From the NCBI GenBank assembly GCA_020632095.1, contig JACKGF010000001.1, forward strand, positions 866,713-930,712: 64,000 nt of DNA, given 5' to 3'. The notes under the pieces are model-generated. The model saw nothing but the letters and a program-made list of their open reading frames with translations. It searched no databases and was not told where the DNA came from. This stretch comes from Candidatus Nomurabacteria bacterium (GTDB lineage Bacteria > Patescibacteriota > Minisyncoccia > Phycocordibacterales > UBA918). Every line of letters begins with the position of its first letter. The first letter of the stretch is position 1. This document shows, one piece after another, positions 7,724 to 37,629 of the stretch. The translations under genes were made by a program, and so were the position numbers.

Positions 7724-7734
7724 TTTGTTGGAGT

Positions 7735-16553: not shown

Positions 16554-16571
16554 TTTTCCTAAACTGAGCAA

Positions 16572-23942: not shown

Positions 23943-24794
23943 CTATACGACCATTTGTGGTTCGATCTCGGTATGGTCAGTCCGGTAATGATGGACAAAG
24001 CGACCGTGGTCAAAAGCGAAGTTAGTCATCGCTGGTAATTCGCTCGATTTTTCAACCAACACGATTTCAGTTTTGTCGACTTCGCCGCGAGTGCCAGTCA
24101 GATCGGCCGTTACTACAAACACCAATGACACTTTGACTCCGCGTGGGTCTCGGTTGAGACCCACTAGGGTTGAGTGGTAGGTGGTGGTACAGTTGCCTTC
24201 ATCCAGACCAGTTTCTTCCCAGAGTTCTCGGTCAAGGGCCTCGCTTGCGCTTTCGGCATTCTCTATCCGACCGCCAACCATTGCGATTCCGGTTGGCTCG
24301 TTAAGACGCTGTATCAGCAGTAGGCTGTTGCGGTCAATACTTTCCACTATCATGTCTACGCAGTATTCGACATCGGCACAAGGTCTTCCTTCGATGATGG
24401 AAATTTCCGAACTGACTGCATAGTCGAGCAACTTAGCTCGACCCTCAAGACTCGGGATTTCGATAGCAAAAGCTAGACCTACGACTATACCGCCAACTTG
24501 TTCAACGAGTTCCACAGCTGCAGCAGCTGTTCCACCAGTAGCAAGAACGTCGTCGATAATCAAGACCCGCTTTCCTTTCATTGCTTCGGAGTCCTGAATT
24601 TCAATTACATCTTTGTCTCGATACTCCAGACAGTACTCGCATGAATGCACCGGTCCGGGTAACTTTCCTTCTTTACGTATCAACTTAAAACCAACGTGTC
24701 GCCCGAGTTCTCTTGCGACCGGACTAAACAGAAAACCGCGAGCATCCAGATATACAACACAATCGATATTCTGATTGCGCCATTTATCGGTCAT
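23943..24794 (-). CDS. Adenine phosphoribosyltransferase (N-terminal) fused to a NUDIX hydrolase (C-terminal)
   Basis: PRTase motif VLIIDDVLATGGT in the N-terminal half; Nudix box GGRIENAESASEALDRELWEETGL in the C-terminal half. Confidence 0.7.
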   Translation of the reverse strand: MTDKWRNQNIDCVVYLDARGFLFSPVARELGRHVGFKLIRKEGKLPGPVHSCEYCLEYRDKDVIEIQDSEAMKGKRVLIIDDVLATGGTAAAAVELVEQVGGIVVGLAFAIEIPSLEGRAKLLDYAVSSEISIIEGRPCADVEYCVDMIVESIDRNSLLLIQRLNEPTGIAMVGGRIENAESASEALDRELWEETGLDEGNCTTTYHSTLVGLNRDPRGVKVSLVFVVTADLTGTRGEVDKTEIVLVEKSSELPAMTNFAFDHGRFVHHYRTDHTEIEPQMVV

Positions 24795-24909: not shown

Positions 24910-25953
24910 TCATTTTGGCAATCCTTCTTTGATTAGTTGGCTAACGCTTCCATCATCGGTCACGTTTTGATAGATGATATGAGCCAGGTAAGGGTGCAGT
25001 GGTACAACCTTTAGCCACTGATGTGGTTTCGTTATTAGCGAATCAGTTACTACCACTTCAGCTCCAGTATCGCCGAGTCTTTTGTATGAAGTGATACCTT
25101 TTTTTGTAGAGAAACCAGCATGAGTACCGCAAGCAATTACTTCGGCAGCACCTCTTGAGAAGAGCATCTTGATTGCGCTAGAAAGTGTGGTAGCAGTGTC
25201 GATGATGTCATCGACAGCAAGACAGGTCATACCGCTTACGTCTGGGCCGGTGATATTGAATATTTGTTTACCTCCATCGCTTCGTGTCTGGTTTATGCAA
25301 ACAATCTGGTTTTCTGACACATTGAGTTCTTTTGCAAGTTTCTTTGCTTCTTTTGGGTTGCCTCCATCAGGGTCAATTAGAATCAGTTTACCTGCTTTAA
25401 TCACCTCGGCAAAGCGTTCCCTTGCGAAATCGCGCCAGATTGCACGTCCAGGGAAATGGTCGTACGGCAATGCCGGATTAGATGCGAATGCCATTTCTAC
25501 TTGACTGCAATGCATGTGAACAGTGATAATTCTTTTGACTGTTGTATACATTTTTATGTTGTCGATAAGTACAGTGGATGAGACTGGTACCCGACCACCA
25601 TCTTTTCGGTCTTGTCGTAAGTAGGGTATGTACGGCGCTACAACAGTAGTGCTTCTTACTCCAGCAAGCTGAAGGGCCTGTAACGTGAGAATGAATGAAT
25701 ATATAGCTTTGTGTAACTCTCCATTGAAGTCAACAAAGAGAAATACGTCCTTATCTCTAACATTGCCACTGATGAAGGGTTTTACCTCGCTACTTTCAAA
25801 CGTTGTTACATCTACTGAAATTGGAGTGTCTATACTTACTCCTAATTGTTCAAGTTCGATAGCGGTGTTCGTTGTCATGTTAGCAATAGCTTCGTTCCTC
25901 GCTATGCTACCTTTGTTCTGACCGTAAGCAAAAACTATATTTGACGGTTGCAT
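24910..25953 (-). CDS. prs: Ribose-phosphate pyrophosphokinase (PRPP synthetase) with N-terminal extension
   Basis: YLRQDRK signature and PRPP-binding VDDIIDTATT motif. Confidence 0.8.
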   Translation of the reverse strand: MQPSNIVFAYGQNKGSIARNEAIANMTTNTAIELEQLGVSIDTPISVDVTTFESSEVKPFISGNVRDKDVFLFVDFNGELHKAIYSFILTLQALQLAGVRSTTVVAPYIPYLRQDRKDGGRVPVSSTVLIDNIKMYTTVKRIITVHMHCSQVEMAFASNPALPYDHFPGRAIWRDFARERFAEVIKAGKLILIDPDGGNPKEAKKLAKELNVSENQIVCINQTRSDGGKQIFNITGPDVSGMTCLAVDDIIDTATTLSSAIKMLFSRGAAEVIACGTHAGFSTKKGITSYKRLGDTGAEVVVTDSLITKPHQWLKVVPLHPYLAHIIYQNVTDDGSVSQLIKEGLPK

Positions 25954-26112: not shown

Positions 26113-26847
26113 ATGAAAGAAATAAAATCGCTATTAAAAACTTTTTTGCACAAAGAAGAAGAAATAAAGGTATTTTTATACTTACTTGAGAAGGGAGAGT
26201 CGGGTGTGCAGGAAATTGCTAGAGGTCTTAGTTTGCATCGTCCGCGAGTATATGAAACCTTAAGTGTACTGTTGGACAAAGGCTTTGTTGAGGAACTTAA
26301 GGTAGGAAAAAGGATTCACTATAAAGCAGTACAACCCTACTTTCTATTAGAAAAAGTAAAATCTATAGAAAGTGATGTTCATAAATTACTGCCTGAATTA
26401 CAGAAAATAAAAGATAAACAGACTAAAGGAATTAGTATGGAGGTTTTGCGCGGAGAAACTGGTCTCGCGGCCTGCTTCCTTGATGTGGTGATGTATTTAA
26501 AAAAAGATGACATTTTTTATCGCATCAGTTCTGCTAAAGATCAACAGTATGTTGACTCGGTGGTGCCAAAGCATTATCGACCAATTCGTGACAGTAAGAA
26601 TCTCGAACGGCGGGTGATAACAAGTCGGTATGTTGGAGAGCAAAAGAAAGCTCGCTTAGAGCGTTCGATTAGATATTTTGACGAGCAGGATGAATTGTTC
26701 GAACACAATGTTATACAGTTTATTTATGGCGATAAAATTTCTTTATTAGATTTTAATTCCTTGACGGGAACAATTATCAAGAATAAAGCGATTGCTGATT
26801 TTCAGAAAAGTATTTTCCTAACCTTGTACAAACGACTTGAAAGATAA
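26113..26847 (+). CDS. TrmB/MarR-like winged-helix transcriptional regulator
   Basis: N-terminal HTH (…LLEKGESGVQEIARGLSLHRPRVYETLSVLLDKGFV…). Confidence 0.5.
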   Translation: MKEIKSLLKTFLHKEEEIKVFLYLLEKGESGVQEIARGLSLHRPRVYETLSVLLDKGFVEELKVGKRIHYKAVQPYFLLEKVKSIESDVHKLLPELQKIKDKQTKGISMEVLRGETGLAACFLDVVMYLKKDDIFYRISSAKDQQYVDSVVPKHYRPIRDSKNLERRVITSRYVGEQKKARLERSIRYFDEQDELFEHNVIQFIYGDKISLLDFNSLTGTIIKNKAIADFQKSIFLTLYKRLER

Positions 26848-26902: not shown

Positions 26903-27574
26903 ATGAAAAAAGCCCCAGAGAGATTGCGTTTTAGCGCTTTAGCCGTTGATGCGGTGGTATTAGGGATAGTAGATGGAGAGTTGTGTGGATTGGTTAGCGA
27001 GGTTAATAGGCCTCCGTATTATGTAAATATATTAGGCTTTCTTGGTGGTTTAATTAATATTGAAGAAAACGCGGATGAAGCTTGTGAAAGAGTGTTGTAT
27101 GAAAAAGGTGGTCTAAAAAATGTTTACGTCGAGCAACTTTATACTTTTAGTGAAGTGGAGAGAGATAAGCGTAACCGCGTTATTTCAGTGGCCTATATAG
27201 CATTGGTCCGCCCAGACACAGCTGCTAGTTATAAATTTGCAGACGCTTCTTTTGTTCCGTTAAAGAAGCTGAAGAATTTGGCTTACGACCATGACGAAAT
27301 GCTACAAATGGCCAAATCTCGACTTCAAGGTAAATTTGCCTATACCAACATAGCTCAATATTTATTGCCGCGTCACTTCACCTTGTCAGAGTTGCAGGCA
27401 ACCTACGAAATTGTCTTGCAAAAAGAATTTGATAAACGTAATTTCCGTAAGAAGGTTTTGTCTTTGGATTTAGTAAAAGAGACAGGTCTGGTGCAAGATG
27501 GAGTGAAGAATCGCCCAGCCGCTTTATATGAATTTAGTTCACAGAAAATTAAGGAGTTTCAGTTGTTGACCTAG
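26903..27574 (+). CDS. nrtR: NrtR-type regulator (Nudix domain + C-terminal winged-helix)
   Basis: Nudix-fold N-terminal half with a degenerate Nudix box, and an NrtR-like C-terminal DNA-binding half. It lies immediately upstream of NAD genes. Confidence 0.6.
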   Translation: MKKAPERLRFSALAVDAVVLGIVDGELCGLVSEVNRPPYYVNILGFLGGLINIEENADEACERVLYEKGGLKNVYVEQLYTFSEVERDKRNRVISVAYIALVRPDTAASYKFADASFVPLKKLKNLAYDHDEMLQMAKSRLQGKFAYTNIAQYLLPRHFTLSELQATYEIVLQKEFDKRNFRKKVLSLDLVKETGLVQDGVKNRPAALYEFSSQKIKEFQLLT

Positions 27575-27582
27575 GTTGAGAA

Positions 27583-27618
27583 GAAGCCACCGATTTCCGA
27601 AAGGGAATCGGTGGCTTC
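27583..27618 (+). terminator. Hairpin terminator after nrtR
   Basis: GAAGCCACCGATT-tccgaaaggg-AATCGGTGGCTTC forms a 13-bp stem; the T-run is weak. Confidence 0.4.
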
Positions 27619-27619
27619 T

Positions 27620-27675
27620 GTGTATCGGATTGACAATACACCAATTCTACTATATCTTAGTGTAAGAGGTACACT
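27620..27675 (+). promoter_or_regulatory. nadK promoter with two GTGTA..TACAC palindromes (candidate NrtR operators)
   Basis: GTGTAT-N10-ATACAC overlaps TTGACAATA, and AGTGTA-agagg-TACACT sits just before the RBS. Confidence 0.4.
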
Positions 27676-27696
27676 TATATTTTCAAGGAGACGGTC

Positions 27697-28521
27697 ATGC
27701 CTGCAAAACCGAGTAAAGTTCTACTGATTCGAGCCGAAGGTAAAAAGTATGTGACTGCTGCTGAAACGACCAGAAATCTTAAGGTTGCTTTTAGCGAGAA
27801 AGGTATTGCTGTCGACGATTGTGATGACGGTGATGTGTATGACATTGCTATCGCCATCGGCGGTGACGGTACCATGATGAAAGCGGTTACAAGTCTGGCG
27901 TCGCGCAATATTCCTACCTTGGGAATCAATGCGGGGGATGTGGGTTTCTTGACTACTGCCGAAGCTACCAAGTGGGAGCAGGTAGTTGAGAGAATTTGTT
28001 CTGGCAATTATGTGCTTGAACAAAGGTTGGGTCTTGAGCTGATTGCCAATTCAGAAGTGGTTGGACCAATCGCCAATGAAGTAGTTTTGCGCCACCCGTA
28101 CAGTGTGGCTGTTTATGAGATTAGTATTGGCGGTCAGGTGTTCTATTCGAACTTGATGGGCGATGGAGTGATGGTGGCAACCGCTACTGGTTCAACCGGC
28201 TACAATACTTCCGCCAACGGTCCGATTTTGTTGCCAAGCTCAAGCAACGTAGTGGTAACACCGCTCAATCCGATGTCATTGACCACTAGACCATTGGTGG
28301 CAGAGGAAGTGGCTCAAGGTAAAACCATCTCTGTCCGGTTGGTGGAAAGTAAGAAGAATCAACCAATCATGATAGTGGCAGACGGCGTGTTGCAAGAGAA
28401 GGGGTTGCAGGTTGGTGACTCTGTCTCACTTTGCAAATATGGGCATGCGCTGTTGTTCGCAACTTTTGGGCTGGGACAGTATGCTAAAGCATTAACTGAG
28501 AAAAAGGGATTTGCAAAATAG
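27697..28521 (+). CDS. nadK: NAD+ kinase
   Basis: GGDGT motif and DGVMVATATGSTGYNTSANGPIL. Confidence 0.9.
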   Translation: MPAKPSKVLLIRAEGKKYVTAAETTRNLKVAFSEKGIAVDDCDDGDVYDIAIAIGGDGTMMKAVTSLASRNIPTLGINAGDVGFLTTAEATKWEQVVERICSGNYVLEQRLGLELIANSEVVGPIANEVVLRHPYSVAVYEISIGGQVFYSNLMGDGVMVATATGSTGYNTSANGPILLPSSSNVVVTPLNPMSLTTRPLVAEEVAQGKTISVRLVESKKNQPIMIVADGVLQEKGLQVGDSVSLCKYGHALLFATFGLGQYAKALTEKKGFAK

Positions 28522-28543
28522 TAAGGAATAGGAAAGGAAGGTC

Positions 28544-28570
28544 AGGCGGGTTACAAAGTGACCCGCCTTT
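28544..28570 (+). terminator. Rho-independent terminator
   Basis: AGGCGGGT-tacaaagtg-ACCCGCCTTT. Confidence 0.55.
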
Positions 28571-28590
28571 AACGTCCATCATGTTGACTT

Positions 28591-28644
28591 AGTGTACACT
28601 TGACAATAATATTAGGTTAGTATAGGATAGTGTAAGAAATACAC
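28591..28644 (+). promoter_or_regulatory. nadM promoter with AGTGTACACT and AGTGTA-agaaa-TACAC palindromes (candidate NrtR operators)
   Basis: Same TTGACAATA -35 context and same palindrome type as upstream of nadK. Confidence 0.4.
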
Positions 28645-28692
28645 AAAGCAGTTCTTTACAACTTATTAACTTTCTAAACAAGAGGTAAAAGT

Positions 28693-29661
28693 ATGCAAAA
28701 AGCAAATACTCTGGGAGTGGTAATTGGTCGTTTCCAGATTCCTGATCCGCATGAAGGGCACATTGCCTTGTTTGATTATGTAGCTTCGCGACATGAAAAA
28801 ATGCTGATTTTGGTCGGTGGAAATAATGTTAGATATAACACTGCTAATCCTTTTCCTTTCCATATCATCAAAAATGTACTGGAAAGGATGTATCCTGAAG
28901 CCATTGTGCTGTCCCAGATGGACAGTCTGGTATCAAATGAACATTGGTCAGGTACGGTGGATGAAAAGGTTATGGCCGCTAGTGGTGATGGAAAGGCGAT
29001 ACTGTATGGTTCTCGCGATAGTTTCGCTAGGCGTTACCGGGGCATATTTCCGATTGAAGAAATGCCGGAAATTCCGAACTGCTCAGCCACCAAGGTGCGC
29101 GAAGATGCGGCTTCCTACCATAGCGACCACCCCGAGTTTCGCAAAGGCTGGTTGGCGGCAATTTTGTCCCAATATCCTGTCACCGACCCAACTGTCGATA
29201 TGGCAATTATCAGGCCAGACCTCAGTCAGGTATTGATGGGAAGACGTGCCAAAAAGGCACCATTCGTCAGATTTTTCGGTGGGTTTGTTGACCCGAATGA
29301 TCAATCGTACGAAGAGGCGGCTATGCGCGAACAGTGTGAAGAAGCCCTTGGAATTGTGGTGAGCAAGCCTAAGTATATTGGCTCGCAACGAATCAACGAT
29401 CCGCGTTACGGCCGTAGCAAGTATGGCATCGTCACTACATTTTTTGCGATGGAATACAAAAAGGGTACTCCTTTTGCCGGTGATGACATGGGTGAGGTCG
29501 AATGGGTTGACCTGAATTGGACCTTGGTGTCGAAGGTGGCACCAGAGCACCGTGACCTTGTTAGAAAGTTGCTGAACTACAAAGCAGACTTGATTAAAAA
29601 GTCGAAAAAAACCAAGAAGTCAAAAGCTGAGGCTAAGCGCAAGAGTAAGCGAGAGTTTTAA
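28693..29661 (+). CDS. nadM: Bifunctional NMN/NaMN adenylyltransferase (NadM-type) fused to Nudix ADP-ribose pyrophosphatase
   Basis: N-terminal GRFQIPDPHEGH (HxGH cytidylyltransferase motif); C-terminal Nudix box GGFVDPNDQSYEEAAMREQCEEALGI. Confidence 0.8.
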   Translation: MQKANTLGVVIGRFQIPDPHEGHIALFDYVASRHEKMLILVGGNNVRYNTANPFPFHIIKNVLERMYPEAIVLSQMDSLVSNEHWSGTVDEKVMAASGDGKAILYGSRDSFARRYRGIFPIEEMPEIPNCSATKVREDAASYHSDHPEFRKGWLAAILSQYPVTDPTVDMAIIRPDLSQVLMGRRAKKAPFVRFFGGFVDPNDQSYEEAAMREQCEEALGIVVSKPKYIGSQRINDPRYGRSKYGIVTTFFAMEYKKGTPFAGDDMGEVEWVDLNWTLVSKVAPEHRDLVRKLLNYKADLIKKSKKTKKSKAEAKRKSKREF

Positions 29662-29780
29662 CTCAGTGATTCTCAATCTGTCCAAGGTAAAACATCGCCT
29701 TGGACACTACTGAGAGTTCCGGAGAGGAATTCTGTTCTTTACAATTTCATATCAACTAACCTAGACATAGGAGATCAGTC

Positions 29781-31028
29781 ATGACAGCTAAATCATTGTT
29801 GTGGGAAAAAGACGCGCCGATTATTCGTTCTCTGGTGGAAACTGATGTCTATAAGCTGAAAATGCTTTATTACATCTGGATTTACTATCCGTATCTTCGG
29901 GTTAAATGGGCGTTCACAAATCGGAAGGTTCAAATCCCGCTTGCAAAATATGTGTCAGTTGGTGCTCTTAAGGAGCAACTTCAGGCGGTGATGGAGCTGC
30001 GTTTCTCGGATGATGACATCAAGTATTTGATGAAGAGGAATGAGTTCTCGGTGAAGTTTTTGGAGGAACTGAAGAAACTTCGTCTCAGTATGCCGGTTGT
30101 TAGAGAATGCAACGGTCAGCTGGTAATCGAGGTTGAGGGAACGTGGCTTGAAACAACTCTGTGGGAAATTTACATTCTCGCAATTGTTGCTGAGCTTTAC
30201 GGGCGTGGCCGTGCTCGTGAAATGGGTATTGACGAGAAGTCTATCTATGACGCAAGCATGCAACGTTTGGAAGAAAAAATAGAGTTCCTGACGCTTCATC
30301 CTGAGCTCAAGATTAACTTGTATGGTTTGCGTCGTCGTTTGTCGGGATTGTTTGAAGATCTTATGATTCAGGCAATGACACAAAGAACCAACTGCATCAT
30401 TTCGGTTTCAAACATGTATCTAGCAAGAAAGAACAACGTTCAGTCAGACGGAACGAATGCCCACGAATTGCCAATGGCAGAATCTGCTATTGCTCGACAC
30501 ATTAGTCCTGAAGCTGTGAGGCAGTCTCCTTATGAAGTGCTTCGGAAATGGGAAAAGCTTTATGGTTATTCATCGCTTAAGATGCTCTCTGATACATATG
30601 GAACTGAGGCTTTCTTGTCTCAACTGCCACAAGAAATTGCGGTGCGTTGGGCTGGACATCGTCAGGATTCAGGTGACCCGTTTGTTATCGGAGAAATGAT
30701 TATCGCTGATTATATCCGTCGAGGAATTGATCCGTCGGACAAGATTATCATTTTTGCTGACGGTCTTGACTGTCAGTTGATGTTGCGTCTTTATGATCGA
30801 TTTGCTAGCCGAATTAACGTTGGTTTTGGGGTTGGTACAAATTTCTCTAATGACCATGGTTTCTTCGAAGCTCTTTCAATCGTAGTTAAGTTGATCGAAG
30901 CAGCCGGTAATCCGACAGTTAAGCTGTCCGATAATCTAGCTAAAGGAATGGGTCCTGAAGCAGAACAACAGGTCATTAAAAGTATTTTTGGTTACAATGG
31001 TGATTTTTACCAAGCAACCAGGTATTGA
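29781..31028 (+). CDS. pncB: Nicotinate phosphoribosyltransferase
   Basis: SLVETDVYKLKM, GTNAHE, HRQDSGDP and VKLSDN align with PncB signature blocks. Confidence 0.85.
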   Translation: MTAKSLLWEKDAPIIRSLVETDVYKLKMLYYIWIYYPYLRVKWAFTNRKVQIPLAKYVSVGALKEQLQAVMELRFSDDDIKYLMKRNEFSVKFLEELKKLRLSMPVVRECNGQLVIEVEGTWLETTLWEIYILAIVAELYGRGRAREMGIDEKSIYDASMQRLEEKIEFLTLHPELKINLYGLRRRLSGLFEDLMIQAMTQRTNCIISVSNMYLARKNNVQSDGTNAHELPMAESAIARHISPEAVRQSPYEVLRKWEKLYGYSSLKMLSDTYGTEAFLSQLPQEIAVRWAGHRQDSGDPFVIGEMIIADYIRRGIDPSDKIIIFADGLDCQLMLRLYDRFASRINVGFGVGTNFSNDHGFFEALSIVVKLIEAAGNPTVKLSDNLAKGMGPEAEQQVIKSIFGYNGDFYQATRY

Positions 31029-31093
31029 TGACTTTGTCCGGCAGCGCAGCTGCCGGGCATTTCTTTAATCTCTTAAAAAATTTGGAGGTTCTC

Positions 31094-33031
31094 ATGAGTA
31101 ACAGTGTGAAAAGGAAGCGGAAAAATGGAGCTTCAAAAATCGACGGACTGATGGTGGCGATGGTGCAGATGGTCATTGTGAATGACCCGATGCAAAACGC
31201 TATCAACTACATTGCAGAAGTCAGAAAGGCCGTGGCTGACGGAGCTGATGTTGTAATCGGCTCCGAGATGATGTTGTGTCAGTATTTCTCGAGCGACCGT
31301 TACGAGGATGTGTCTTTCGTTAACGACGTTCAGCAAGCGATACAACACATCATTAGTGAGTCTGCCTATATCGACGCAGTGCTCGTCTTCGGTGGTATCG
31401 GAGTCGATGCGGCTGGTATGGTTAATGAAGACGGTCGGCGCCGCAAGTACAACGCAGCGTTTGTGGTGCAACACGGTAAGCTGGTCAGTAACGATGCTGG
31501 ACTAGCGTTTGCCATCAAGACGTTGTTGGTCGACTATCGTGTTTATAGCGACTCTCGTTACTTCTACGATTTGAACATGTTGGCGTACGAGATGGGTTGT
31601 GCAGTCGAGGATTTGCTTAAACCCTTCACGGTTAAAATCTGTGGTGTGGAATACAAGCTGGGTGTCATGCTCTGCGAAGACATGTGGGACATTGATTACG
31701 CTATCAAGCCGTCCCTCATTCTCAAAGAAAACGGCGCCGAAATTCTCATCAATCTCTCGGCTTCTAATTGGAGTTGGCGTAAAGATGTGAAGCGTGACCG
31801 GGTTATCGCAGATATTTGTCGCAAGACTGGTCTGTGGTTTGTGTACGTTAACAACGTCGGCTGTCAAAACACCGGTCATAATTTCTTAAGTTTTGATGGT
31901 TCATCAACGGTCTATAGTAGCGGTGGTAACATTGTTGCTTTGACCGAACCCTACAAAGCTGTAACGAAGGTGGTTGAGTTGGGTGGCGAATTTGTTTTTT
32001 CGTTTACTCGACCTCAACTTCCCGACGAAGCCGAGCTTTATAATGCGATTGTTCAAGCGACTAAAGGCTTCCTGGAAACAGTGCCTGACTTCGCCAAGCA
32101 GAAAGTCGTGATTGGTAATAGTGGTGGTATCGATTCCGCTTTGTCGATTGCGTTTTTTGCTAAGTTACTGGGTCCAGAAAATGTTATAGCGGTGAATATG
32201 CCGTATAGCAACTTCAATGCCGACGAAACGAAGAGCGATGCAGCTGAGTTGTGTCGGCGGCTGGGGGTGAAGGATTATCGTATAGTTCCGATTGATAAAA
32301 TCGTGGACACGACCTGTGCCCTGACTGGTATCAAAGTTGGCACGAGTCAGCACAAGACAGCTCAAGCCGTGGCACGGATGAACGTACTGTCAGCTATCGC
32401 TTCGCAAGAAAATGGTTTCTTTACCTGCAATGCGAACATGTCAGAAATCGCTTTTGGTTACGGAACGCTGAACGGTGACATGCGTGGCACCTTTGCTCCG
32501 TGGTCCAGTTGTCTGAAGCAAGACGTCTACCGCTTGGCTGATTATCTCAACCGTGAAGTTTACGGTAGGGAAGTAATACCGCAGTCAATCTTCAAGCGTC
32601 CGCCAATGGATGAACTGACGATGGCAGGTACCGGTGAGCGCGGCGATCCATTTTTCTTTGGTGACGTTAAGCAAAACGGCTACCACGATCAAATGGTGCG
32701 AGCAATTGTTGTTTTCCGACATGGTCCAGAATGGTTCCTTGAGCAATACATGGCGGGTACTTTGGAGCGCGAGCTGCAACTGCCGGTAGGGACGATTAAT
32801 TCTTTGTTCAAGGACGGTAAGGTTTGGTTGGATGACTTGGAGCGGTGTTTTGGTCTTTATCAAGACGCAGTCTTCAAACGTCAGCAGCTAGTGCCAGGTC
32901 CGTTGGTTGATAGGCGTGCTTTTGGTTCTGATCTTCGAGAGAGCATTCTCAAGATGCTCTGGACCATGGCTTACAAGCATATGAAGATGATGTTTGGTAT
33001 TAAAAAATATCCGTCTTACCAAGCGGTTTAG
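31094..33031 (+). CDS. nadE: Glutamine-dependent NAD+ synthetase (nitrilase domain + NadE domain)
   Basis: N-terminal CN-hydrolase domain and C-terminal SGGIDSA PP-loop. The start is placed at the ATG with a TGGAGG RBS (31094) rather than the ORF-track 31025. Confidence 0.85.
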   Translation: MSNSVKRKRKNGASKIDGLMVAMVQMVIVNDPMQNAINYIAEVRKAVADGADVVIGSEMMLCQYFSSDRYEDVSFVNDVQQAIQHIISESAYIDAVLVFGGIGVDAAGMVNEDGRRRKYNAAFVVQHGKLVSNDAGLAFAIKTLLVDYRVYSDSRYFYDLNMLAYEMGCAVEDLLKPFTVKICGVEYKLGVMLCEDMWDIDYAIKPSLILKENGAEILINLSASNWSWRKDVKRDRVIADICRKTGLWFVYVNNVGCQNTGHNFLSFDGSSTVYSSGGNIVALTEPYKAVTKVVELGGEFVFSFTRPQLPDEAELYNAIVQATKGFLETVPDFAKQKVVIGNSGGIDSALSIAFFAKLLGPENVIAVNMPYSNFNADETKSDAAELCRRLGVKDYRIVPIDKIVDTTCALTGIKVGTSQHKTAQAVARMNVLSAIASQENGFFTCNANMSEIAFGYGTLNGDMRGTFAPWSSCLKQDVYRLADYLNREVYGREVIPQSIFKRPPMDELTMAGTGERGDPFFFGDVKQNGYHDQMVRAIVVFRHGPEWFLEQYMAGTLERELQLPVGTINSLFKDGKVWLDDLERCFGLYQDAVFKRQQLVPGPLVDRRAFGSDLRESILKMLWTMAYKHMKMMFGIKKYPSYQAV

Positions 33032-33070
33032 TTCTTAAAGTAGTACATTTAGACAGAGAGGTAATAAAAC

Positions 33071-33099
33071 AGGCGAGTCCCACAGGACTCGCCTTTTTC
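33071..33099. terminator. Bidirectional terminator (nadE / ADP-ribosylglycohydrolase)
   Basis: GGCGAGTCC-cacag-GGACTCGCC followed by TTTTT, with an A-run before. Confidence 0.6.
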
Positions 33100-33108
33100 A
33101 ATATTTAC

Positions 33109-34104
33109 TTATTTACCCATCCTCTTTTTGAGAATTTGTTCGGCGTAAATACACATCTTGTTGTGACCGAGAATTGTCCGACGCCATTCTTCCGGGATAC
33201 CACCGTAACCAAAGTGTGCACCCAGTAGACCTCCAGCAATCGCGGCGTAGGTATCAGTGTCGCCACCAACCCTGACTGCAATTTCAATTCCATCGCGGAA
33301 TGATGTCGCGTGCTTAAGTGCATAAAGCGCAACAAACAATGAAAACTCTGCCAAACCGCGGCCAGGAAATGCTCCAGGGTCGTAAGGAATCAAGTAATCA
33401 TCACTGACAGAAGCAGTTACTCGGCGATAAAATAGTTCATATCGAGGGTCGCTGTAGACCAGAATAGAATTGAAAATTGCTTCCGCTGGTGAATATCCGG
33501 CTAGGAGTTTGAGTAGCACAGCGGTATACATCCAGCAGGCTTGTAAAGCATGAGGGTGAGCGTGAGTCACTTTGGACATTCTAAACACCATGCTGCGCAT
33601 TGATGTTTCGTCTGTCCAGCCAAGTTGTGGTGGACCAAACCAAAGTGCCATCGGTGAACAGCGCATTAAGCTACCGTTGGTACCCATTGAATTGCTGAGA
33701 GCTTTGGCTACCAGCTTGGGGTTGTCACTCAAAGCATCGCGAGTAGTTTGACCAGAACCGGTCGACAAACCCTCCCACAAAAGACTCTTACGGTCGATGA
33801 CGTTGTGGCGTAGTAGGGTGTGCAAGTCTTCAATACATAGCCCGTTGTTGCGAAGCAGACTGAAGGCTAAGACCGCGGTTTGTTCAGAATCATCCGTCGG
33901 TCTCCCAGCTGGTAAATCCACCCCGTTGCCATCATTGGGCCACGGATTTTTGTAGTCAAAAAAAACAAGTCCACCGCGTGCTTCAATATCTCTGGCGATT
34001 TCTCTCGGACGCATCGTTTCGTATGGTGCGCCGATAGAGTCCCCAGCATGTACTCCAACTAATGTGCCAAGGTATTTACGCAATAATTCTTGAAATGTTT
34101 GCAC
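33109..34104 (-). CDS. ADP-ribosylglycohydrolase family protein (DraG-like)
   Basis: GDSIGAPYE and DDSEQT motifs of the ADP-ribosyl-hydrolase fold. Confidence 0.75.
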   Translation of the reverse strand: MQTFQELLRKYLGTLVGVHAGDSIGAPYETMRPREIARDIEARGGLVFFDYKNPWPNDGNGVDLPAGRPTDDSEQTAVLAFSLLRNNGLCIEDLHTLLRHNVIDRKSLLWEGLSTGSGQTTRDALSDNPKLVAKALSNSMGTNGSLMRCSPMALWFGPPQLGWTDETSMRSMVFRMSKVTHAHPHALQACWMYTAVLLKLLAGYSPAEAIFNSILVYSDPRYELFYRRVTASVSDDYLIPYDPGAFPGRGLAEFSLFVALYALKHATSFRDGIEIAVRVGGDTDTYAAIAGGLLGAHFGYGGIPEEWRRTILGHNKMCIYAEQILKKRMGK

Positions 34105-34274
34105 GTCATTTCTCCTCCTAGGTTGAGATAAACTTATCTAAAATCAAGTTAGCATTATTGGTGAGGGTGTCAATACTTGTGAAGATGAGTTCAACAATTA
34201 ATTGCAACACCTGATTAGCAGTCTAAGCTATACAGGTATGCAAAAAAGGAAACAAGTAACCCCGGAAAAAAGCT

Positions 34275-34303
34275 TGACAAAAGTCAATCGATGTGATATT
34301 TTG
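34275..34303 (+). promoter_or_regulatory. Sigma70-like promoter with TTGAC-aaaa-GTCAA palindrome over the -35
   Basis: TTGACA, a 16-nt spacer, then TATTTT; located 58 bp upstream of the ATG at 34361. Confidence 0.35.
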
Positions 34304-34360
34304 TGCAAGCTTCGTGTGAAGTAGCGTTCTTAATTCAAAATCCCTTTTAAGGAAACCACT

Positions 34361-34855
34361 ATGTCCAAAAACGACAGTCAAAAAACCACCGACCAAACCA
34401 ACTCCAAAGATCAGGTCTTCCTCGGTGGAAGCTGTGACCCGACTACCTGGCGCCAGGACATCGCAATGCCGATGTTCGACAATGCAGGTGTGGCCTACTA
34501 CAACCCTCAGGTTGCAGATTGGCATTCCGGCCTCATGGCCCTCGAAGCGGCAGCGAAGGAGGAAAGTAATATTCTCCTGTTTGTCATCGACGGCCAGACC
34601 CGGGCCATTGCCAGTATTCTGGAGTCCGTTGAGTACACGATGGCGGGTCGGAAAGTCGTCCTGGTTATCAACCAGGTCCCCGACGGTACCGTCATCGCCG
34701 GTCAGGTCGTTACGGGGCGTGAACTCAAAGACCTGAATCGTGCTCGGGAGTATCTGGGCGAACTCGCTGATCGTCACGACAATGTGACGGTTTACGAAGA
34801 TGTTGCTTCGGCTGTTCAAGCCATCTTGGATGACCGTCAGAAGCTCGCCGCCTAA
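34361..34855 (+). CDS. Nucleoside 2-deoxyribosyltransferase-like (DrHyd/NDT fold) protein; candidate N-glycoside hydrolase
   Basis: VFLGGSCD…W near the N-terminus and …ILESVEYTMAGRKVVLVI… resemble the NDT YFAGP and catalytic-Glu blocks. The DNA is GC-rich. Confidence 0.5.
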   Translation: MSKNDSQKTTDQTNSKDQVFLGGSCDPTTWRQDIAMPMFDNAGVAYYNPQVADWHSGLMALEAAAKEESNILLFVIDGQTRAIASILESVEYTMAGRKVVLVINQVPDGTVIAGQVVTGRELKDLNRAREYLGELADRHDNVTVYEDVASAVQAILDDRQKLAA

Positions 34856-34960: not shown

Positions 34961-34990
34961 AAAAAGCCCGCAAGCGTAGCTTGCGGGCGG
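34961..34990 (-). terminator. Terminator of the minus-strand pncA-vWA-PP2C-kinase operon
   Basis: On the minus strand, GCCCGCAAGC-tac-GCTTGCGGGC is followed by TTTTTT. Confidence 0.55.
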
Positions 34991-35010: not shown

Positions 35011-36741
35011 TTATTGCATGCGGAGTGACCATAGTGCCCCGTCTTTCAGATAGGTAACTTGGTTTCCGATGCGCGTCAGTCGCATGTCAGTGGCGAGGTC
35101 TTTGTCGCTGACTATCTTCTGTTCCCCTCGTGAAGGAACAGTGATAACCAATTCACCGTCTTGAGCAATACTGGCTGTGACTCCCTTTGGTAGGGCGGAG
35201 AGGTTTTGCTCTGGTCCATCAAAGATACGTACACTACAGTCGTATTTTCTCCAGTCGGAATCGAACGAAAAGCTTTTGGCTTCGTATTCGCCTTTGGGGT
35301 TGATGGTGATTACCTCAACAAAACGGTTGCCGGCGATAGCGTTGATGGCTTTAATTCCATCAAGCTCCGGTGTGCGTACCATTGCCACGGCGTCGTCACC
35401 GTAGGGGGCAATTAGGTGCATTGCGCCCATGATGTCGCTGACACCAACACCTTGGAACCACTTGGTGGACTTACCAAGTATTTGCCACCGCTTACCGATA
35501 GTGAGAACCGGCTTGCTGAACTGATGAAGTGACATCTCAACCAGCTCAGTGTCATTGGCAACAAACAAACGCTCATTGCTTCTAACTACCGAGTTTATTT
35601 CCAGTGGGACAGACAGCTTAGTTTCAAGACCTTTTTGATCAATGTTCCGCCAATGCCAATCACCACCTATTTCCTCAACTACCAGCCAGCCGGAATTGTG
35701 GCTAGTTACAGCCACCCGACTCCCGCTAACTTGGCCGATTTCACGCTTGGTGGACAGATTGATTAGAGAGCCTGAGTTCATGCGCATGATTCCGCAGGGC
35801 CAGACCGACTTCACTTCATCTCCCAGTAGTTCAAACAATTTCTCGTAGATCAAACCACCAGTGGCAGTTGTAACTGTACGCAAGATGCGTCCAACAGCCG
35901 TCCGCGCTTGTCCGACTTGCAGTGGTGAAGGAGGGATACTCCGTTCGCCATCAGTGAACACAGCTTTGTACCAGTCGAGCAATGGACCAGGAATGGTTCT
36001 GAAGTCACGCACTGCTTTGTTTAGCTTAACTTCAGGTAGAAAGACGGAAGCGTTGTTTTTCATCCGCCTTTCCATCTCACCCGGTTTGTAGCCGTCGAGT
36101 TTGCCACGATACGGATGGATACCCGTATAGAGCAAAAACGTGACCACTCCCCAAGCGAACCAATCCGAAGCTTCATTGATGACACTATGCCAGTCGCGGA
36201 TAGAAGGCATTATGACCGAAGCTTTGAAGCGTTCAATCTGCCATGAGTCGACGTCGATGACGTAGGGTACTGGGTCGCTTGCGTTACTTACATCAGCTAT
36301 CCAGTTGAGTTCGTTGGCGTCTACCATCAAGGCTTTTTGGTCGTGGGCGTAAGCTACGACTTCGTGCATCTTGGCGGTCAAGCAGATGGTCGATTGCAGG
36401 TTGAAATTGTTTTGGGTCCGCCAATCGTTGGTAAAAATTCTAGGATAGGCTTCACCCGACACAAACGGCATATAGTAACCAATTGGTTTGCCGCCTGTGT
36501 CACTAACAATTCCTTGTGGTGCCACGATGGACGAGTGCTTCAAACTAGTGGCCAACAAGCGAACTTTTTTGACCATGTCATCTTGTTGCATTTTTTGTGC
36601 GTCAAGATAGAGCTTGATGATGTATTGACCATTGCGATAAATGGCCCCTTCACCCCCTTGCGTGATGTAGTCTGTGGGTCTGAGAGTCAGAGCACCATGA
36701 TCATCGAGAGTAACTTTGGTTGCGCGTGTGATCAGAGACAT
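35011..36741 (-). CDS. Atypical Ser/Thr protein kinase-like protein (YegI-like) with a C-terminal ~290-aa uncharacterised domain
   Basis: Gly-rich loop QGGEGAIY plus IIKLY lysine; HDQKALMVDANELN catalytic-loop-like; IDVDSW (DFG-like); WGVVTFLLYTGIHPY substrate-lobe motif. Confidence 0.55.
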   Translation of the reverse strand: MSLITRATKVTLDDHGALTLRPTDYITQGGEGAIYRNGQYIIKLYLDAQKMQQDDMVKKVRLLATSLKHSSIVAPQGIVSDTGGKPIGYYMPFVSGEAYPRIFTNDWRTQNNFNLQSTICLTAKMHEVVAYAHDQKALMVDANELNWIADVSNASDPVPYVIDVDSWQIERFKASVIMPSIRDWHSVINEASDWFAWGVVTFLLYTGIHPYRGKLDGYKPGEMERRMKNNASVFLPEVKLNKAVRDFRTIPGPLLDWYKAVFTDGERSIPPSPLQVGQARTAVGRILRTVTTATGGLIYEKLFELLGDEVKSVWPCGIMRMNSGSLINLSTKREIGQVSGSRVAVTSHNSGWLVVEEIGGDWHWRNIDQKGLETKLSVPLEINSVVRSNERLFVANDTELVEMSLHQFSKPVLTIGKRWQILGKSTKWFQGVGVSDIMGAMHLIAPYGDDAVAMVRTPELDGIKAINAIAGNRFVEVITINPKGEYEAKSFSFDSDWRKYDCSVRIFDGPEQNLSALPKGVTASIAQDGELVITVPSRGEQKIVSDKDLATDMRLTRIGNQVTYLKDGALWSLRMQ

Positions 36742-36762: not shown

Positions 36763-37629
36763 TTAGTTGCGATGAATGACGGCACAAGATATATCGTCAA
36801 GTGGACCGCGTCCGACTTTGCTGTTTTCGGTTAGGAACCGATTCATGCGTCGGACAGCAAATTGGCCGTTGATACTTTTGTAGGCCAAGAGTTGGCGCAC
36901 TACGTCGACACATTGCATGCCGTCAACTTGTTCCACTCCGTCGGAGAAAAGTGCCACCGAAATCAGTCGACCGTTCTTTGTTTCAAGGTCTGGGTCAGTT
37001 GGGTTACAAATCCAACCCTTCATACCAACTTCCACGGTATATCCGATTGCGGTTTGTTTGGTTTCTTTCTCACCTTCATTCGACGATATGGTTTGAGTAC
37101 TAATCGTGAATGGCAATTCAACGCTCTTGTGCGCTGACTTGAATGAATCCTCCAAGTTACCTTGCCGATAGGCGGGGTAGTAAGGAGTGTTCATGTTCCA
37201 ATCAAATTGGTGAATCACCAGACAGTTTTCATACTGTATAGCCACCACCCCGTCGCCGATTACATTGATGAATATTGATTCATCTTGGTTGATGGCATAG
37301 AGGCAAGTTGCGAGCAGGTCGGGATGAGTCAGTCCGAGTTGCACCCGGTACAATTCCAGATAGTTGTTTCTAAGTTGATTGACTTGGGTGATGAATGCTT
37401 CGTCAACCAACGAATCACTAGTGGATAGTTCCTCCAAGGCTCGTTTGGTCGCCAAGACAATCAGTCGTGACCCAATGTCGGTCATTCCACCGCTGGAGCA
37501 ACCATCGCTGACGATGGTGTAGTTTGTGTAGTTGTTGAGAGTGCCACTCAAGGTGTAGTCTTGATTTGGTTTACCATTACTTCTGTGTTGGAAGCCAATG
37601 TGAAAGGCGTGGTCTGTGACAAAAGTCAT
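36763..37629 (-). CDS. PP2C-family Ser/Thr protein phosphatase
   Basis: …RSNGKPNQDY… and …VSDGCSSGGMTD… match PP2C motifs (RxxxxNQD, DGxGG). Confidence 0.7.
   Translation of the reverse strand: MTFVTDHAFHIGFQHRSNGKPNQDYTLSGTLNNYTNYTIVSDGCSSGGMTDIGSRLIVLATKRALEELSTSDSLVDEAFITQVNQLRNNYLELYRVQLGLTHPDLLATCLYAINQDESIFINVIGDGVVAIQYENCLVIHQFDWNMNTPYYPAYRQGNLEDSFKSAHKSVELPFTISTQTISSNEGEKETKQTAIGYTVEVGMKGWICNPTDPDLETKNGRLISVALFSDGVEQVDGMQCVDVVRQLLAYKSINGQFAVRRMNRFLTENSKVGRGPLDDISCAVIHRN

What the first reader, a model, noticed from the sequence alone, without database searches (positions are those of the whole stretch)
26903..34855. Complete NAD recycling neighbourhood with three Nudix domains, NrtR, ADP-ribosylglycohydrolase and an NDT-fold hydrolase
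Within 8 kb sit NrtR (Nudix-wHTH), nadK, nadM-Nudix, pncB, Gln-dependent nadE, an ADP-ribosylglycohydrolase and an NDT/DrHyd-fold protein, with pncA immediately beyond. An APRT–Nudix fusion and prs lie 2 kb upstream. Together these read as a self-contained pathway: NR/NMN or ADP-ribosylated substrates → nicotinamide + ADP-ribose → nicotinate → NaMN → NaAD → NAD → NADP, with ADPR disposal by the Nudix domains. The NDT-fold protein, which keeps the catalytic-Glu block, is a candidate for the missing N-ribosidic cleavage step (NMN or NR nucleosidase). That activity is not normally assigned to this fold in salvage pathways. The concentration of ADPR-handling enzymes also hints that NAD is being consumed, by ADP-ribosylation or NADase activity, somewhere nearby.
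Basis: partly seen in the sequence, partly recalled or inferred. Interest (0 to 1): 0.6.

Follow-up and report, generated by a model that had tools for sequence, protein, structure and literature searches.

The report
NAD salvage regulon with signalling triad
This stretch of an ultra-small (CPR) bacterium's chromosome holds a real, repressor-controlled gene cluster for recycling the cofactor NAD.

Summary
The gene list is correct. Profile searches confirm NrtR, nadK, NadM-type NMNAT–Nudix, pncB, Gln-dependent nadE, an ADP-ribosylglycohydrolase (ARH) and a PF15891 NDT-like protein at 26903–34855, with prs and APRT–Nudix upstream.

One statement is wrong: pncA is not immediately beyond. A kinase, a PP2C phosphatase and a TerY-like vWA protein come first, then a long nicotinamidase-like gene at 38549–39427.

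These four genes form one operon behind an NrtR-type operator (TAGTGTA-N5-TACACTA). The operon, its operator and flanking NAD salvage genes recur together in at least six other genomes, mostly CPR.

The NDT-like gene is a separately transcribed insertion in this genome. In four other genomes it is inserted at different places in or beside the same module. It lies next to an ARH in three loci, one of them phage-like. In eight lineages it faces a roughly 950-aa SLOG/LSDAT protein.

It keeps an invariant Glu where NDT and TIR glycosidases carry their catalytic Glu. It is most likely a pyridine-nucleotide N-glycosidase (NAD+ rather than NMN), but the substrate is inferred, not shown.

The NAD cluster itself is a known kind. 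The triad and NDT-like association appears undescribed.

The parts
23943..24794 (-). APRT-Nudix fusion. The Nudix box is canonical (GGRIENAESASEALDRELWEETGL). The first ~45 APRT residues are encoded upstream in another reading frame.
   Evidence: Pribosyltran plus NUDIX, and APRT models matching from profile position ~46; the frameshift is identical in assemblies L007 and L008.
24910..25953 (-). Prs-family ribose-phosphate diphosphokinase. It is co-directional with the APRT-Nudix gene.
   Evidence: TIGR01251 151 bits against a cut-off of 113; all equivalog models below cut-off; phrog_619.
26113..26847 (+). TrmB-family HTH regulator between prs and nrtR.
   Evidence: TrmB E 7e-15; present at the same place in L007 and L008.
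26903..27574 (+). NrtR, a Nudix-like effector domain plus a winged-helix DNA-binding domain.
   Evidence: NrtR_WHD E 4.5e-23; NF050029 E 1.5e-32, below the equivalog cut-off.
27659..27675 (.). Candidate NrtR operator AGTGTAAGAGGTACACT, upstream of nadK.
   Evidence: 0 mismatches. The core GT-N7-AC matches the published NrtR motif.
27697..28521 (+). NAD kinase.
28591..28645 (.). Two candidate NrtR operators (28591-28607 and 28629-28645), upstream of the nadM-pncB-nadE run.
   Evidence: 2 mismatches and 1 mismatch.
28693..29661 (+). NadM-type nicotinamide/nicotinate mononucleotide adenylyltransferase fused to a Nudix (ADPR pyrophosphatase-type) domain.
   Evidence: The GRFQ..PHEGH and SATKVR motifs were read from the sequence.
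29781..31028 (+). Nicotinate phosphoribosyltransferase, PncB.
   Evidence: TIGR01514 274.7 bits against a cut-off of 269.6.
31025..33031 (+). Glutamine-dependent NAD synthetase (CN-hydrolase plus NAD_synthase domains).
33109..34104 (-). ADP-ribosylglycohydrolase (ARH/DraG family). The metal-binding motifs GDSIG, DDSEQT and GGDTDT are present.
   Evidence: E 2.3e-51. An ARH lies in the same module in L028 and L105.
34274..34302 (+). Promoter-like site for the NDT-like gene (TTGACA-17-TATTTT with an upstream TG). No NrtR operator lies in the 34105-34360 spacer.
34361..34855 (+). PF15891 NDT-like (DrHyd superfamily) protein, 164 aa. It is monocistronic and convergent with the kinase gene.
34966..34988 (-). 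Terminator-like hairpin after the kinase gene. It separates the kinase operon from ARH in this genome.
35011..36741 (-). Eukaryote-like Ser/Thr protein kinase (residues 1-270) plus a C-terminal all-beta, propeller-like domain (295-576).
   Evidence: catalytic motifs invariant. AF2 pLDDT 85; best PDB hit LRRK2, then kinase domains; at least 617 relatives.
36763..37629 (-). PP2C-type protein phosphatase.
   Evidence: PP2C_2 E 1.9e-18.
37700..38542 (-). TerY-like vWA protein with MIDAS residues D65-x-T-x-S69, T142 and D178.
   Evidence: alignment A3; weak VWA hit for the L028 orthologue; no Pfam hit for the window protein itself.
38549..39427 (-). Long nicotinamidase-like (isochorismatase-family) hydrolase, the first gene of the operon.
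   Evidence: catalytic D25/K172/C222 and metal ligands D69/H71/H138 are invariant and align to yeast Pnc1.
39523..39539 (.). Candidate NrtR operator about 96 bp upstream of the nicotinamidase-like operon.
   Evidence: The same arrangement occurs in L022, L028, L105, L106 and L107.
39698..39714 (.). Second candidate operator in the divergent spacer, about 100 bp upstream of a 103-aa membrane-protein ORF.

Best explanation
The region is the core of the NrtR regulon for NAD salvage and recycling in a CPR bacterium labelled Candidatus Nomurabacteria. The functional unit runs from about 23.9 kb to 39.7 kb, not just 26.9-34.9 kb.

Shown or strongly supported:
- NrtR-type operators (TAGTGTA-N5-TACACTA) precede nadK, the nadM-pncB-nadE run, and an operon encoding a nicotinamidase-like protein, a vWA protein, PP2C and a kinase.
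- That operon is a TerY-P-type phospho-signalling triad headed by a nicotinamidase-like enzyme. It recurs, with NAD salvage genes and/or NrtR nearby, in all seven other loci examined, mostly CPR; in five of them the same operator precedes it.

Inferred pathway:
- The nicotinamidase-like enzyme converts Nam to NA.
- PncB, using PRPP from Prs, makes NaMN.
- NadM makes NaAD, NadE makes NAD and NadK makes NADP.
- ADP-ribose released from NAD, or from ADP-ribosylated targets by ARH, relieves NrtR repression. The two catalytically intact Nudix domains then dispose of it.

The PF15891 NDT-like protein is an accessory gene with its own promoter. In this lineage it has been inserted between the kinase gene and ARH.

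I infer that it is an N-glycosidase or transglycosidase acting on a phosphorylated pyridine nucleotide, most likely NAD+ (giving Nam plus ADPR or an ADPR derivative), less likely NMN. That would feed Nam to the nicotinamidase-like enzyme and supply the ligand sensed by NrtR. In other genomes the ligand would also reach the SLOG/LSDAT partner.

The kinase/PP2C/vWA triad most likely sets the activity of this NAD-turnover branch by phosphorylation. Its targets are unknown.
For: - Annotation.
- Operators: the motif has the published NrtR core GT-N7-AC. Sites with at most 1 mismatch number 15 in 175 kb across seven loci, against 0.63 in shuffles. Those next to the module lie in the spacers upstream of nadK, nadM and the nicotinamidase-like operon in the window, and upstream of the orthologous operon in L022, L028, L105, L106 and L107.
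- Module conservation: the nicotinamidase-like, vWA, PP2C and kinase genes are collinear and 28-76% identical in L024, L028, L105, L106 and L107; L022 has them in a different order at 23-30%. All seven loci have NAD salvage genes and/or NrtR nearby. The kinase family has at least 617 members.
- Catalytic residues are conserved in the kinase, the vWA MIDAS site and the nicotinamidase-like protein. The kinase fold is confirmed.
- NDT-like protein: the Pfam hit is above cut-off. E88, E62, T80 and R81 are invariant in 30 sequences. The AF2 model has pLDDT 91. The best PDB fold matches are plant TIR NADase domains and putative NDTs.
- NDT-like context: the gene sits inside or beside the same module at different positions in L022, L024, L028 and L030. 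It is adjacent to ARH in the window, in L028 and in the phage-like L114. It is convergent with an LSDAT/SLOG protein in eight lineages.
- Precedent: members of the DrHyd/NDT superfamily act as NADases and ADP-ribosyl cyclases, and Retron-Eco1 carries an NDT-like effector.
Against: - No enzyme activity is known for any PF15891 member. No sequence relative has a solved structure, and hhalign against DNPH1/Rcl gives nothing. The equivalence of E88 to the catalytic Glu therefore rests on topology, not on a superposition.
- The NDT-like gene has its own promoter and no NrtR operator.
- Most family loci with usable flanks (roughly 25 of about 33) show no NAD gene nearby.
- Three NAD clusters that carry the module lack the NDT-like gene entirely, so it is dispensable for salvage.
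- Fold matches are modest (TM about 0.5-0.6) and do not separate NAD from mononucleotide substrates.
- L105 and L106 carry a canonical PncA as well as the long nicotinamidase-like protein. The latter's substrate may therefore not be free nicotinamide.
- The targets of the kinase and phosphatase are unknown.
Confidence: 0.6

Rival explanations
1. Plain salvage reading. The NDT-like protein is an NMN or NR nucleosidase. It turns NMN (for example from NAD-dependent DNA ligase) into nicotinamide plus ribose-5-phosphate, feeding the PncA-PncB route and Prs. It has no signalling role.
For: - The invariant Glu, together with T80/R81 in the loop where DNPH1 binds the 5'-phosphate, fits a nucleoside-monophosphate hydrolase (the Rcl sequence was checked).
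- The gene is linked to nicotinamidase-like genes and prs.
- 50-70% identity across phyla is typical of a metabolic enzyme.
Against: - A NadM-type NMNAT is present, so NMN need not be broken down.
- L105-L107 salvage NAD without this gene.
- This reading does not explain the recurrent pairing with SLOG/LSDAT sensors, ARH and KptA, which are ADPR-centred.
Confidence: 0.2
2. Defence or conflict reading. The NDT-like protein, the TerY-P-type triad and (elsewhere) the SLOG/LSDAT protein form an NAD-cleaving, ADPR-signalling immune or dormancy system with Thoeris-like logic. The NAD salvage genes sit nearby only to refill the pool.
For: - TerY-P-like modules are reported as stand-alone anti-phage systems and as add-ons to restriction systems.
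- The best fold matches are TIR NADases.
- The NDT-like plus SLOG pairing mirrors ThsB (TIR) plus ThsA (SLOG).
- The gene is mobile. Its GC is 55% against 42% for the window. It occupies different insertion points in different genomes, and copies occur in phage-like contigs.
Against: - No PADLOC model matches any of these proteins.
- The triad is under an NrtR operator, is syntenic across CPR lineages and sits beside housekeeping genes. That is unlike a variable defence island.
- The protein sequences are highly conserved rather than fast-evolving.
- The SLOG partner is absent from this window.
Confidence: 0.15
3. The NDT-like protein is a DNPH1/Rcl-like (deoxy)nucleotide N-hydrolase for nucleotide-pool cleaning or base salvage. 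Its position next to NAD genes is hitch-hiking.
For: - PF15891 is named for similarity to nucleoside 2-deoxyribosyltransferases.
- Outside CPR the neighbours are unrelated housekeeping genes: an HhH-GPD glycosylase, a PfkB kinase and ProRS. A dNK gene lies upstream in L024.
- CPR bacteria depend on scavenged nucleotides (general knowledge).
Against: - The gene has been recruited independently into the same NrtR/nicotinamidase/triad module at four different positions, and sits next to ARH in three loci. At a rough chance rate of about 2% per locus, this is hard to explain by hitch-hiking.
Confidence: 0.1

Closest known systems
NrtR regulons of NAD metabolism (Rodionov et al. 2008, PMC2330246)
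   Same: - A Nudix-like plus wHTH repressor sits next to pncA, pncB, nadE, nadM and prs.
- The operator is a palindrome with the core GT-N7-AC.
- The effector is ADPR.
- An ARH (draG) next to nrtR was already noted in Streptomyces.
   Different: - Here the regulon also contains nadK, which that paper does not mention.
- It also contains a kinase/PP2C/vWA triad headed by a long nicotinamidase-like gene.
- No paper in the searched library links NrtR with CPR bacteria, or a nicotinamidase with such a triad.
TerY-P triad (vWA + PP2C + Ser/Thr kinase; Anantharaman et al. 2012, as summarised in PMC11090510)
   Same: - The three components are the same.
- The vWA keeps the MIDAS motif.
- The kinase orthologues in L022 and L028 carry a CxxC...CPxC zinc ribbon after the kinase domain.
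   Different: - The window kinase has lost the zinc ribbon and carries a C-terminal beta-propeller-like domain.
- No PADLOC model of any defence system, the kinase-based ones included, matches convincingly.
- The triad is co-operonic with a nicotinamidase-like gene and under NrtR control, not linked to Ter or restriction genes.
DrHyd/NDT superfamily N-glycosidases: DNPH1/Rcl, nucleoside 2-deoxyribosyltransferase, ADP-ribosyl cyclase, the Retron-Eco1 NDT effector
   Same: - Rossmann-like five-stranded fold.
- An invariant Glu in the helix after strand 3, and conserved polar residues after strand 1.
- Several members cleave or exchange the base at C1' of a ribose, including that of NAD+.
   Different: - It is a separate Pfam family (PF15891) with no characterised member.
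- It has no detectable sequence similarity to Rcl or to any solved structure.
- It has a distinctive FLGGSC-PTTWR / NPQ / TRA..S..E / LKDLNRAR.Y signature.
Thoeris (ThsB TIR + ThsA SIR2-SLOG) and the eukaryotic ADP-ribosyl cyclase / TRPM2 (SLOG) axis
   Same: - In eight lineages the NDT-like gene is paired with a protein carrying a SLOG (LSDAT_prok) domain. This is the same producer-plus-SLOG-sensor logic.
- The best fold matches include TIR NADases.
   Different: - The pair is convergent, not co-transcribed.
- The partner has no SIR2 or other recognised effector domain and no TM helices.
- The partner is absent from this window.
Bifunctional NadM-Nudix (NMN adenylyltransferase / ADPR pyrophosphatase; NCBIfam PRK05379 models)
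   Same: The architecture is the same, an N-terminal HxGH nucleotidyltransferase plus a C-terminal Nudix domain. REx2EE is kept.
   Different: It scores far below the equivalog cut-offs (51 bits against 409), so substrate preference (NMN or NaMN) cannot be assigned.

Membership tests
NrtR family | C-terminal NrtR-type winged-helix domain after an N-terminal Nudix-like domain. | tested here: met
   NrtR_WHD E 4.5e-23 (residues 153-211); NUDIX E 1.5e-4 (residues 28-134).
NrtR family | Palindromic operator of about 21 bp with the core GT-N7-AC, upstream of NAD genes. | tested here: met
   15 sites with at most 1 mismatch in seven loci, against 0.63 expected. Those beside the module lie in the spacers upstream of the relevant operons.
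NrtR family | DNA binding relieved by ADP-ribose. | not testable with these tools
   Needs EMSA with and without ADPR.
NrtR family | Score above the NCBIfam equivalog cut-off (NF050029). | tested here: not met
   113 bits against a cut-off of 400. This is a divergent member.
PF15891 / DrHyd (NDT-like) superfamily | Pfam model match above the gathering score. | tested here: met
   67.6 bits against 30, E 1.4e-18.
PF15891 / DrHyd (NDT-like) superfamily | Rossmann-like five-stranded alpha/beta fold shared with NDT and TIR. | tested here: met
   pLDDT 91. Foldseek hits to TIR domains (E 2e-4) and to the putative NDTs 4mcj and 8rh3.
PF15891 / DrHyd (NDT-like) superfamily | Catalytic Glu in the helix after strand 3. 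| tested here: inconclusive
   E88 is invariant in 30 sequences and lies in helix 83-94 after strand 69-76. No 3D superposition or sequence alignment to Rcl was possible.
PF15891 / DrHyd (NDT-like) superfamily | N-glycosidic bond cleavage or transfer activity. | not testable with these tools
   Needs an enzyme assay.
TerY-P triad | vWA protein with a MIDAS motif (DxSxS...T...D). | tested here: met
   D65, S69, T142 and D178 are invariant; position 67 is T or S. The window protein has no Pfam VWA hit. The L028 orthologue hits weakly.
TerY-P triad | PP2C phosphatase and Ser/Thr kinase in the same operon. | tested here: met
   PP2C_2 E 1.9e-18; kinase motifs and fold.
TerY-P triad | Kinase fused at its C-terminus to a zinc ribbon (or an OB fold in the defence version). 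| tested here: not met
   the zinc ribbon is present in the L022 and L028 orthologues but missing in the window and L024 proteins; a disordered linker occupies 275-293, followed by an all-beta domain.
TerY-P triad | Match to a PADLOC defence-system model (the library is assumed, not verified, to include TerY-P models). | tested here: not met
   no hit except a marginal PD-T4-6 kinase match (E 0.004).
Nicotinamidase (PncA/Pnc1) | Catalytic Asp-Lys-Cys triad and Asp/His/His metal site. | tested here: met
   D25, K172, C222, D69, H71 and H138 are invariant and align to Pnc1 D8, K122, C167, D51, H53 and H94.
Nicotinamidase (PncA/Pnc1) | Score above the curated family cut-offs. | tested here: not met
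   Isochorismatase 20.1 bits against 27. NF008623 30.5 bits against 174. The protein is about 290 aa with an insert of roughly 80 aa. L105 and L106 also have a canonical PncA.
ADP-ribosylglycohydrolase (ARH/DraG) | Pfam PF03747 match over the full length. | tested here: met
   E 2.3e-51, profile positions 1-287 of 287.
Thoeris-like system | The NAD-cleaving producer and the SLOG-domain effector are encoded together. | tested here: not met
   there is no LSDAT/SLOG homologue anywhere in the 64-kb window. The pairing exists only in other genomes.

The most novel reading that the evidence does not exclude
PF15891 proteins are the NAD+-cleaving producers of ADPR or an ADPR derivative, and this product is read by two receptors: the NrtR repressor and the large SLOG/LSDAT proteins.

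Together with the NrtR-controlled operon (nicotinamidase-like, vWA, PP2C, kinase), they would form a phospho-switch-gated NAD/ADPR signalling circuit native to CPR bacteria and shared with their huge phages.

This would be a prokaryotic counterpart of the eukaryotic axis from ADP-ribosyl cyclase through ADPR to TRPM2 (SLOG). It would also be a candidate explanation for how these minimal cells couple NAD supply to growth or dormancy.
Probability: 0.2. Interest if true: 0.8.

Novelty: new variant of a known kind. Interest (0 to 1): 0.62.

Why it matters
CPR/Patescibacteria are a large, mostly uncultured part of bacterial diversity. They have minimal metabolism, and how they obtain and regulate cofactors is poorly known.

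This analysis shows that their NAD salvage genes form an NrtR regulon with a recognisable operator. The regulon repeatedly includes a eukaryote-like kinase/PP2C/vWA switch (more than 600 homologues of the kinase). That implies post-translational control of NAD turnover which has not, as far as I could find, been described.

It also gives a concrete, testable function for PF15891. This is an uncharacterised enzyme family with about 2,500 cluster representatives in bacteria, phages and protists. The proposed function is cleavage or exchange at the nicotinamide-ribose bond.

If correct, the family would extend the TIR/DrHyd NADase world into core metabolism. It could also supply a gene for the NMN nucleosidase activity, which to my knowledge still has no assigned gene.

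Tried and rejected
- Sequence route to a characterised relative of the NDT-like protein. phmmer and a profile search against the PDB gave only noise. hhalign of the family profile against rat Rcl/DNPH1 gave probability 0.05.
- PADLOC defence models found nothing for the NDT-like protein, ARH, kinase, PP2C, vWA or nicotinamidase-like protein. I did not file the module as a known defence system.
- Rfam found no riboswitch or other RNA family in the window, and there are no tRNAs.
- I searched the window for the SLOG/LSDAT partner and found none. Thoeris-like membership for this locus is rejected.
- I looked for an NrtR operator in the ARH/NDT-like spacer and found none.
- I looked for the operator in the GC-rich L024 locus and found none.
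- 'pncA immediately beyond' is rejected.
- Prs as an Adps-like NARP1 enzyme was considered, because prs-like genes accompany NAD genes in phages. No Namat/NadV partner is present here, so it is left as ordinary Prs.
- Domain fusions of distant PF15891 proteins were uninformative apart from EF-hand and one ECSIT_N fusion.

Full report
**What is in the window.** It is a bacterial chromosome segment. It carries pilC and pilins, tpiA, pgk, recJ, comEC, rpsL, rpsG, fusA and tuf. It has no tRNA genes and no Rfam match. The NDT-like protein is identical to an NCBI protein labelled Candidatus Nomurabacteria bacterium, on a 997-kb contig. The host is therefore a CPR/Patescibacteria bacterium.

**Checking the observation.** They also confirm prs and an APRT-Nudix fusion upstream.

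Read from the sequence, the APRT-fused Nudix box is canonical, the NadM-fused one keeps REx2EE, and the NrtR one is degenerate.

The claim 'pncA immediately beyond' is wrong. The next genes on the minus strand are:
- a 576-aa protein with no Pfam hit, 35011-36741;
- a PP2C phosphatase, 36763-37629;
- a 280-aa protein, 37700-38542;
- only then a 292-aa isochorismatase-like protein, 38549-39427.

- The 292-aa protein aligns to yeast Pnc1 and other nicotinamidases. Its catalytic D/K/C triad and D/H/H metal site are invariant among orthologues. It nevertheless falls below the curated cut-offs.
- The 280-aa protein has conserved MIDAS residues of a vWA domain.
- The 576-aa protein keeps the Gly-rich loop, the catalytic Lys, the D-x-N-x-x-N loop and the D-x-D metal site of protein kinases.
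- Its AF2 model (pLDDT 85) consists of a kinase domain, a linker and an all-beta domain. The best PDB matches are LRRK2 (kinase plus WD40), then kinase domains.
- vWA plus PP2C plus Ser/Thr kinase is the composition of a TerY-P triad. Orthologous kinases in L022 and L028 even carry the zinc ribbon typical of TerY-P kinases. The window protein has lost it.

**Regulation.** A palindrome, AGTGTA-N5-TACACT, occurs upstream of nadK (27659, perfect) and nadM (28629 and 28591). It also occurs at 39523 and 39698, in the spacer upstream of the nicotinamidase-like operon.

It contains the GT-N7-AC core reported for NrtR operators. The same motif precedes the orthologous operon in L022, L028, L105, L106 and L107. 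It also precedes nadE, pnuC-nadR and pncB in L016. Across seven loci there are 15 sites with at most one mismatch in 175 kb, against 0.63 in shuffles. None lies in the spacer between ARH and the NDT-like gene.

**Conservation of the whole arrangement.** The kinase family has at least 617 members, nearly all about 576 aa and from Patescibacteria. All seven loci examined place the module beside NAD genes and/or NrtR (genes listed in order):
- L105 (Kaiserbacteria): nicotinamidase-like, vWA, PP2C, kinase, ARH, a 115-aa protein, an LSDAT-like protein; then nadE, a canonical PncA, pncB and a Nudix gene.
- L106: NrtR, then the module, then NMNAT, PncA, nadK, pncB, prs and nadE.
- L107 (Moraniibacteria): the module, then NMNAT, pncB, nadE and pnuC.
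- L028: NrtR; then PP2C, kinase, nicotinamidase-like, vWA, Nudix, ARH, NDT-like; then NMNAT; nadE; and pncB, nadK, Nudix.
- L024: nadE, nicotinamidase-like, vWA, NDT-like, PP2C, KptA, kinase, NrtR.
- L022: vWA, nicotinamidase-like, kinase, PP2C; then NrtR; then a 287-aa protein and the NDT-like gene, convergent with an LSDAT gene.
- L030: nicotinamidase-like, vWA, NDT-like.

The triad is a regular member of it.

**The NDT-like protein.**
- Family size and conservation: members are 50-70% identical across CPR, other bacteria and eukaryote-like sequences, including EF-hand fusions. There are 2,539 cluster representatives, many with tandem copies.
- Invariant residues: FLGGSC (20-25), T28, W30, R31, N48-P49-Q50, E62, K66, T80, R81, E88, N126, R129 and Y131.
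- Model: the AF2 model (pLDDT 91) is a five-stranded Rossmann-like domain. E88 lies in the helix after strand 3. That is the topological position of the catalytic Glu in DNPH1/NDT and in TIR NADases; this equivalence is my reading, not a superposition.
- Fold matches: Foldseek's best PDB hits are plant TIR NADase domains, followed by putative NDTs, with TM about 0.5-0.6.
- No sequence-level link to any solved or characterised protein could be made.

**Context of the NDT-like family.** I looked at about 33 non-redundant loci with usable flanks.
- The gene lies in or beside the NrtR/triad/nicotinamidase module or an NAD cluster in the window, L016, L022, L024 and L028 (and the short L030). Its position differs each time.
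- It is adjacent to an ARH in the window, in L028 and in L114. L114 is a 453-kb phage-like contig that also carries prs and an anti-Pycsar nuclease.
- In eight lineages it is convergent with a soluble 850-1000-aa protein carrying a C-terminal LSDAT_prok (SLOG) domain.
- In the window that partner is absent.
- Compared with the syntenic L105, the NDT-like gene is an insertion between the kinase gene and ARH. It has its own promoter-like site and flanking terminators. Its GC content is 55% against 42% for the window.
- Elsewhere its neighbours are unrelated housekeeping genes.

**Interpretation.** The salvage route itself is standard and follows from established knowledge of these families: Nam to NA to NaMN to NaAD to NAD to NADP, with NrtR sensing ADPR and Nudix domains removing it.

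What is new is that the first enzyme of the route is encoded with a phospho-signalling triad under the same repressor. In addition, a DrHyd-superfamily enzyme has been recruited to this module several times, together with ADPR-centred partners (ARH, KptA, Nudix, SLOG, NrtR).

That pattern argues that the NDT-like enzyme acts on the nicotinamide-ribose bond of NAD+ (less likely NMN) and yields Nam plus ADPR or a derivative. Members of this superfamily are already known as NADases and ADP-ribosyl cyclases. The NDT-like effector of Retron-Eco1 belongs to a system reported, by the title of Carabias et al. 2024 as cited in PMC12405507, to form NAD+-hydrolysing filaments. The chemistry is therefore not new for the fold. 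Its placement in a salvage regulon is.

The substrate, the kinase's targets and the role of the SLOG partner are inferred, not shown.

**Rivals.** I considered a pure NMN/NR nucleosidase, an NAD-depleting defence module and a DNPH1-like dNMP hydrolase. Each explains part of the evidence, and each is weighed in the Rival explanations section.

**Limits.**
- I could not inspect the rest of the genome, so the absence of nadA/B/C is untested.
- I could not superpose structures.
- The operator assignments are computational.
- Literature searches of the held library found no paper linking NrtR to CPR bacteria or a nicotinamidase to such a triad. That library is incomplete.

Noticed in passing
window 24795-24909 (minus strand), upstream of the APRT-Nudix ORF: The first ~45 residues of an APRT (…LHGVPFWDIESITEVGYNWNYLIDS) are encoded upstream of the annotated ATG, with no in-frame start codon. 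An MKEVAETLRSHH… start lies in another frame. This looks like a frameshift, and it is identical in two other assemblies of the same strain.
   Followed up: partly
window 16140-17382 and 45742-49352: rpsL-rpsG are separated from fusA-tuf by about 28 kb that holds the whole NAD/triad supercluster, so the usual str operon is split. In Kaiserbacteria locus L105, fusA also lies about 6 kb from the nicotinamidase-like operon.
   Followed up: no
window 39816-40127 (+): A 103-aa predicted two-TM protein is transcribed divergently from the nicotinamidase-like operon, with a second NrtR-type operator (39698) about 100 bp upstream. A 100-aa gene sits at the same place in L105. It may be a small NrtR-regulated membrane protein or transporter.
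   Followed up: no
window 34361-34855, 37700-38542 and 38549-39427: GC content of the NDT-like gene (55.2%), the nicotinamidase-like gene (55.2%) and the vWA gene (52.4%) is well above the window mean (42.4%) and above tuf (44.9%). This suggests horizontal acquisition or unusual constraint.
   Followed up: partly
window 34223-34819 (-): A 198-aa ORF antisense to the NDT-like gene stays open in nine related loci. It is probably a by-product of strong conservation and high GC rather than a gene.
   Followed up: no
L001, L012, L013, L014, L016, L017, L022, L033 (for example L016:10640-13528): A soluble 950-1000-aa protein with a C-terminal LSDAT_prok (SLOG) domain and an unannotated N-terminal ~680 aa lies convergent with the NDT-like gene in eight lineages. 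An 851-aa relative lies in the NAD/triad cluster of L105.
   Followed up: partly
L114 (ERZ19036836 scaffold_9, 453 kb), 5028-9450: A phage-like contig (virion structural protein, HNH, anti-Pycsar Apyc1) carries prs, then ARH immediately followed by an NDT-like gene. L115, L023 and IMG/VR loci L108-L113 also carry relatives among many small ORFs.
   Followed up: partly
proteins P0074, P0100, P0279, P0241 and L072:2713-4527: PF15891 domains occur fused to EF-hands, to an ECSIT_N domain, as two to four tandem copies in long (probably protist) proteins, and at the C-terminus of a 604-aa bacterial protein.
   Followed up: partly
window 25985-26015: A different palindrome (CTGTAC-N16-GTACAG) lies in the AT-rich spacer between prs and the TrmB-family regulator gene. 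It may be that regulator's site.
   Followed up: no
L105 and L106: These genomes encode both a canonical PncA (203-249 aa, Pfam Isochorismatase) and the long nicotinamidase-like protein of the triad operon. The two paralogues may have different substrates.
   Followed up: no
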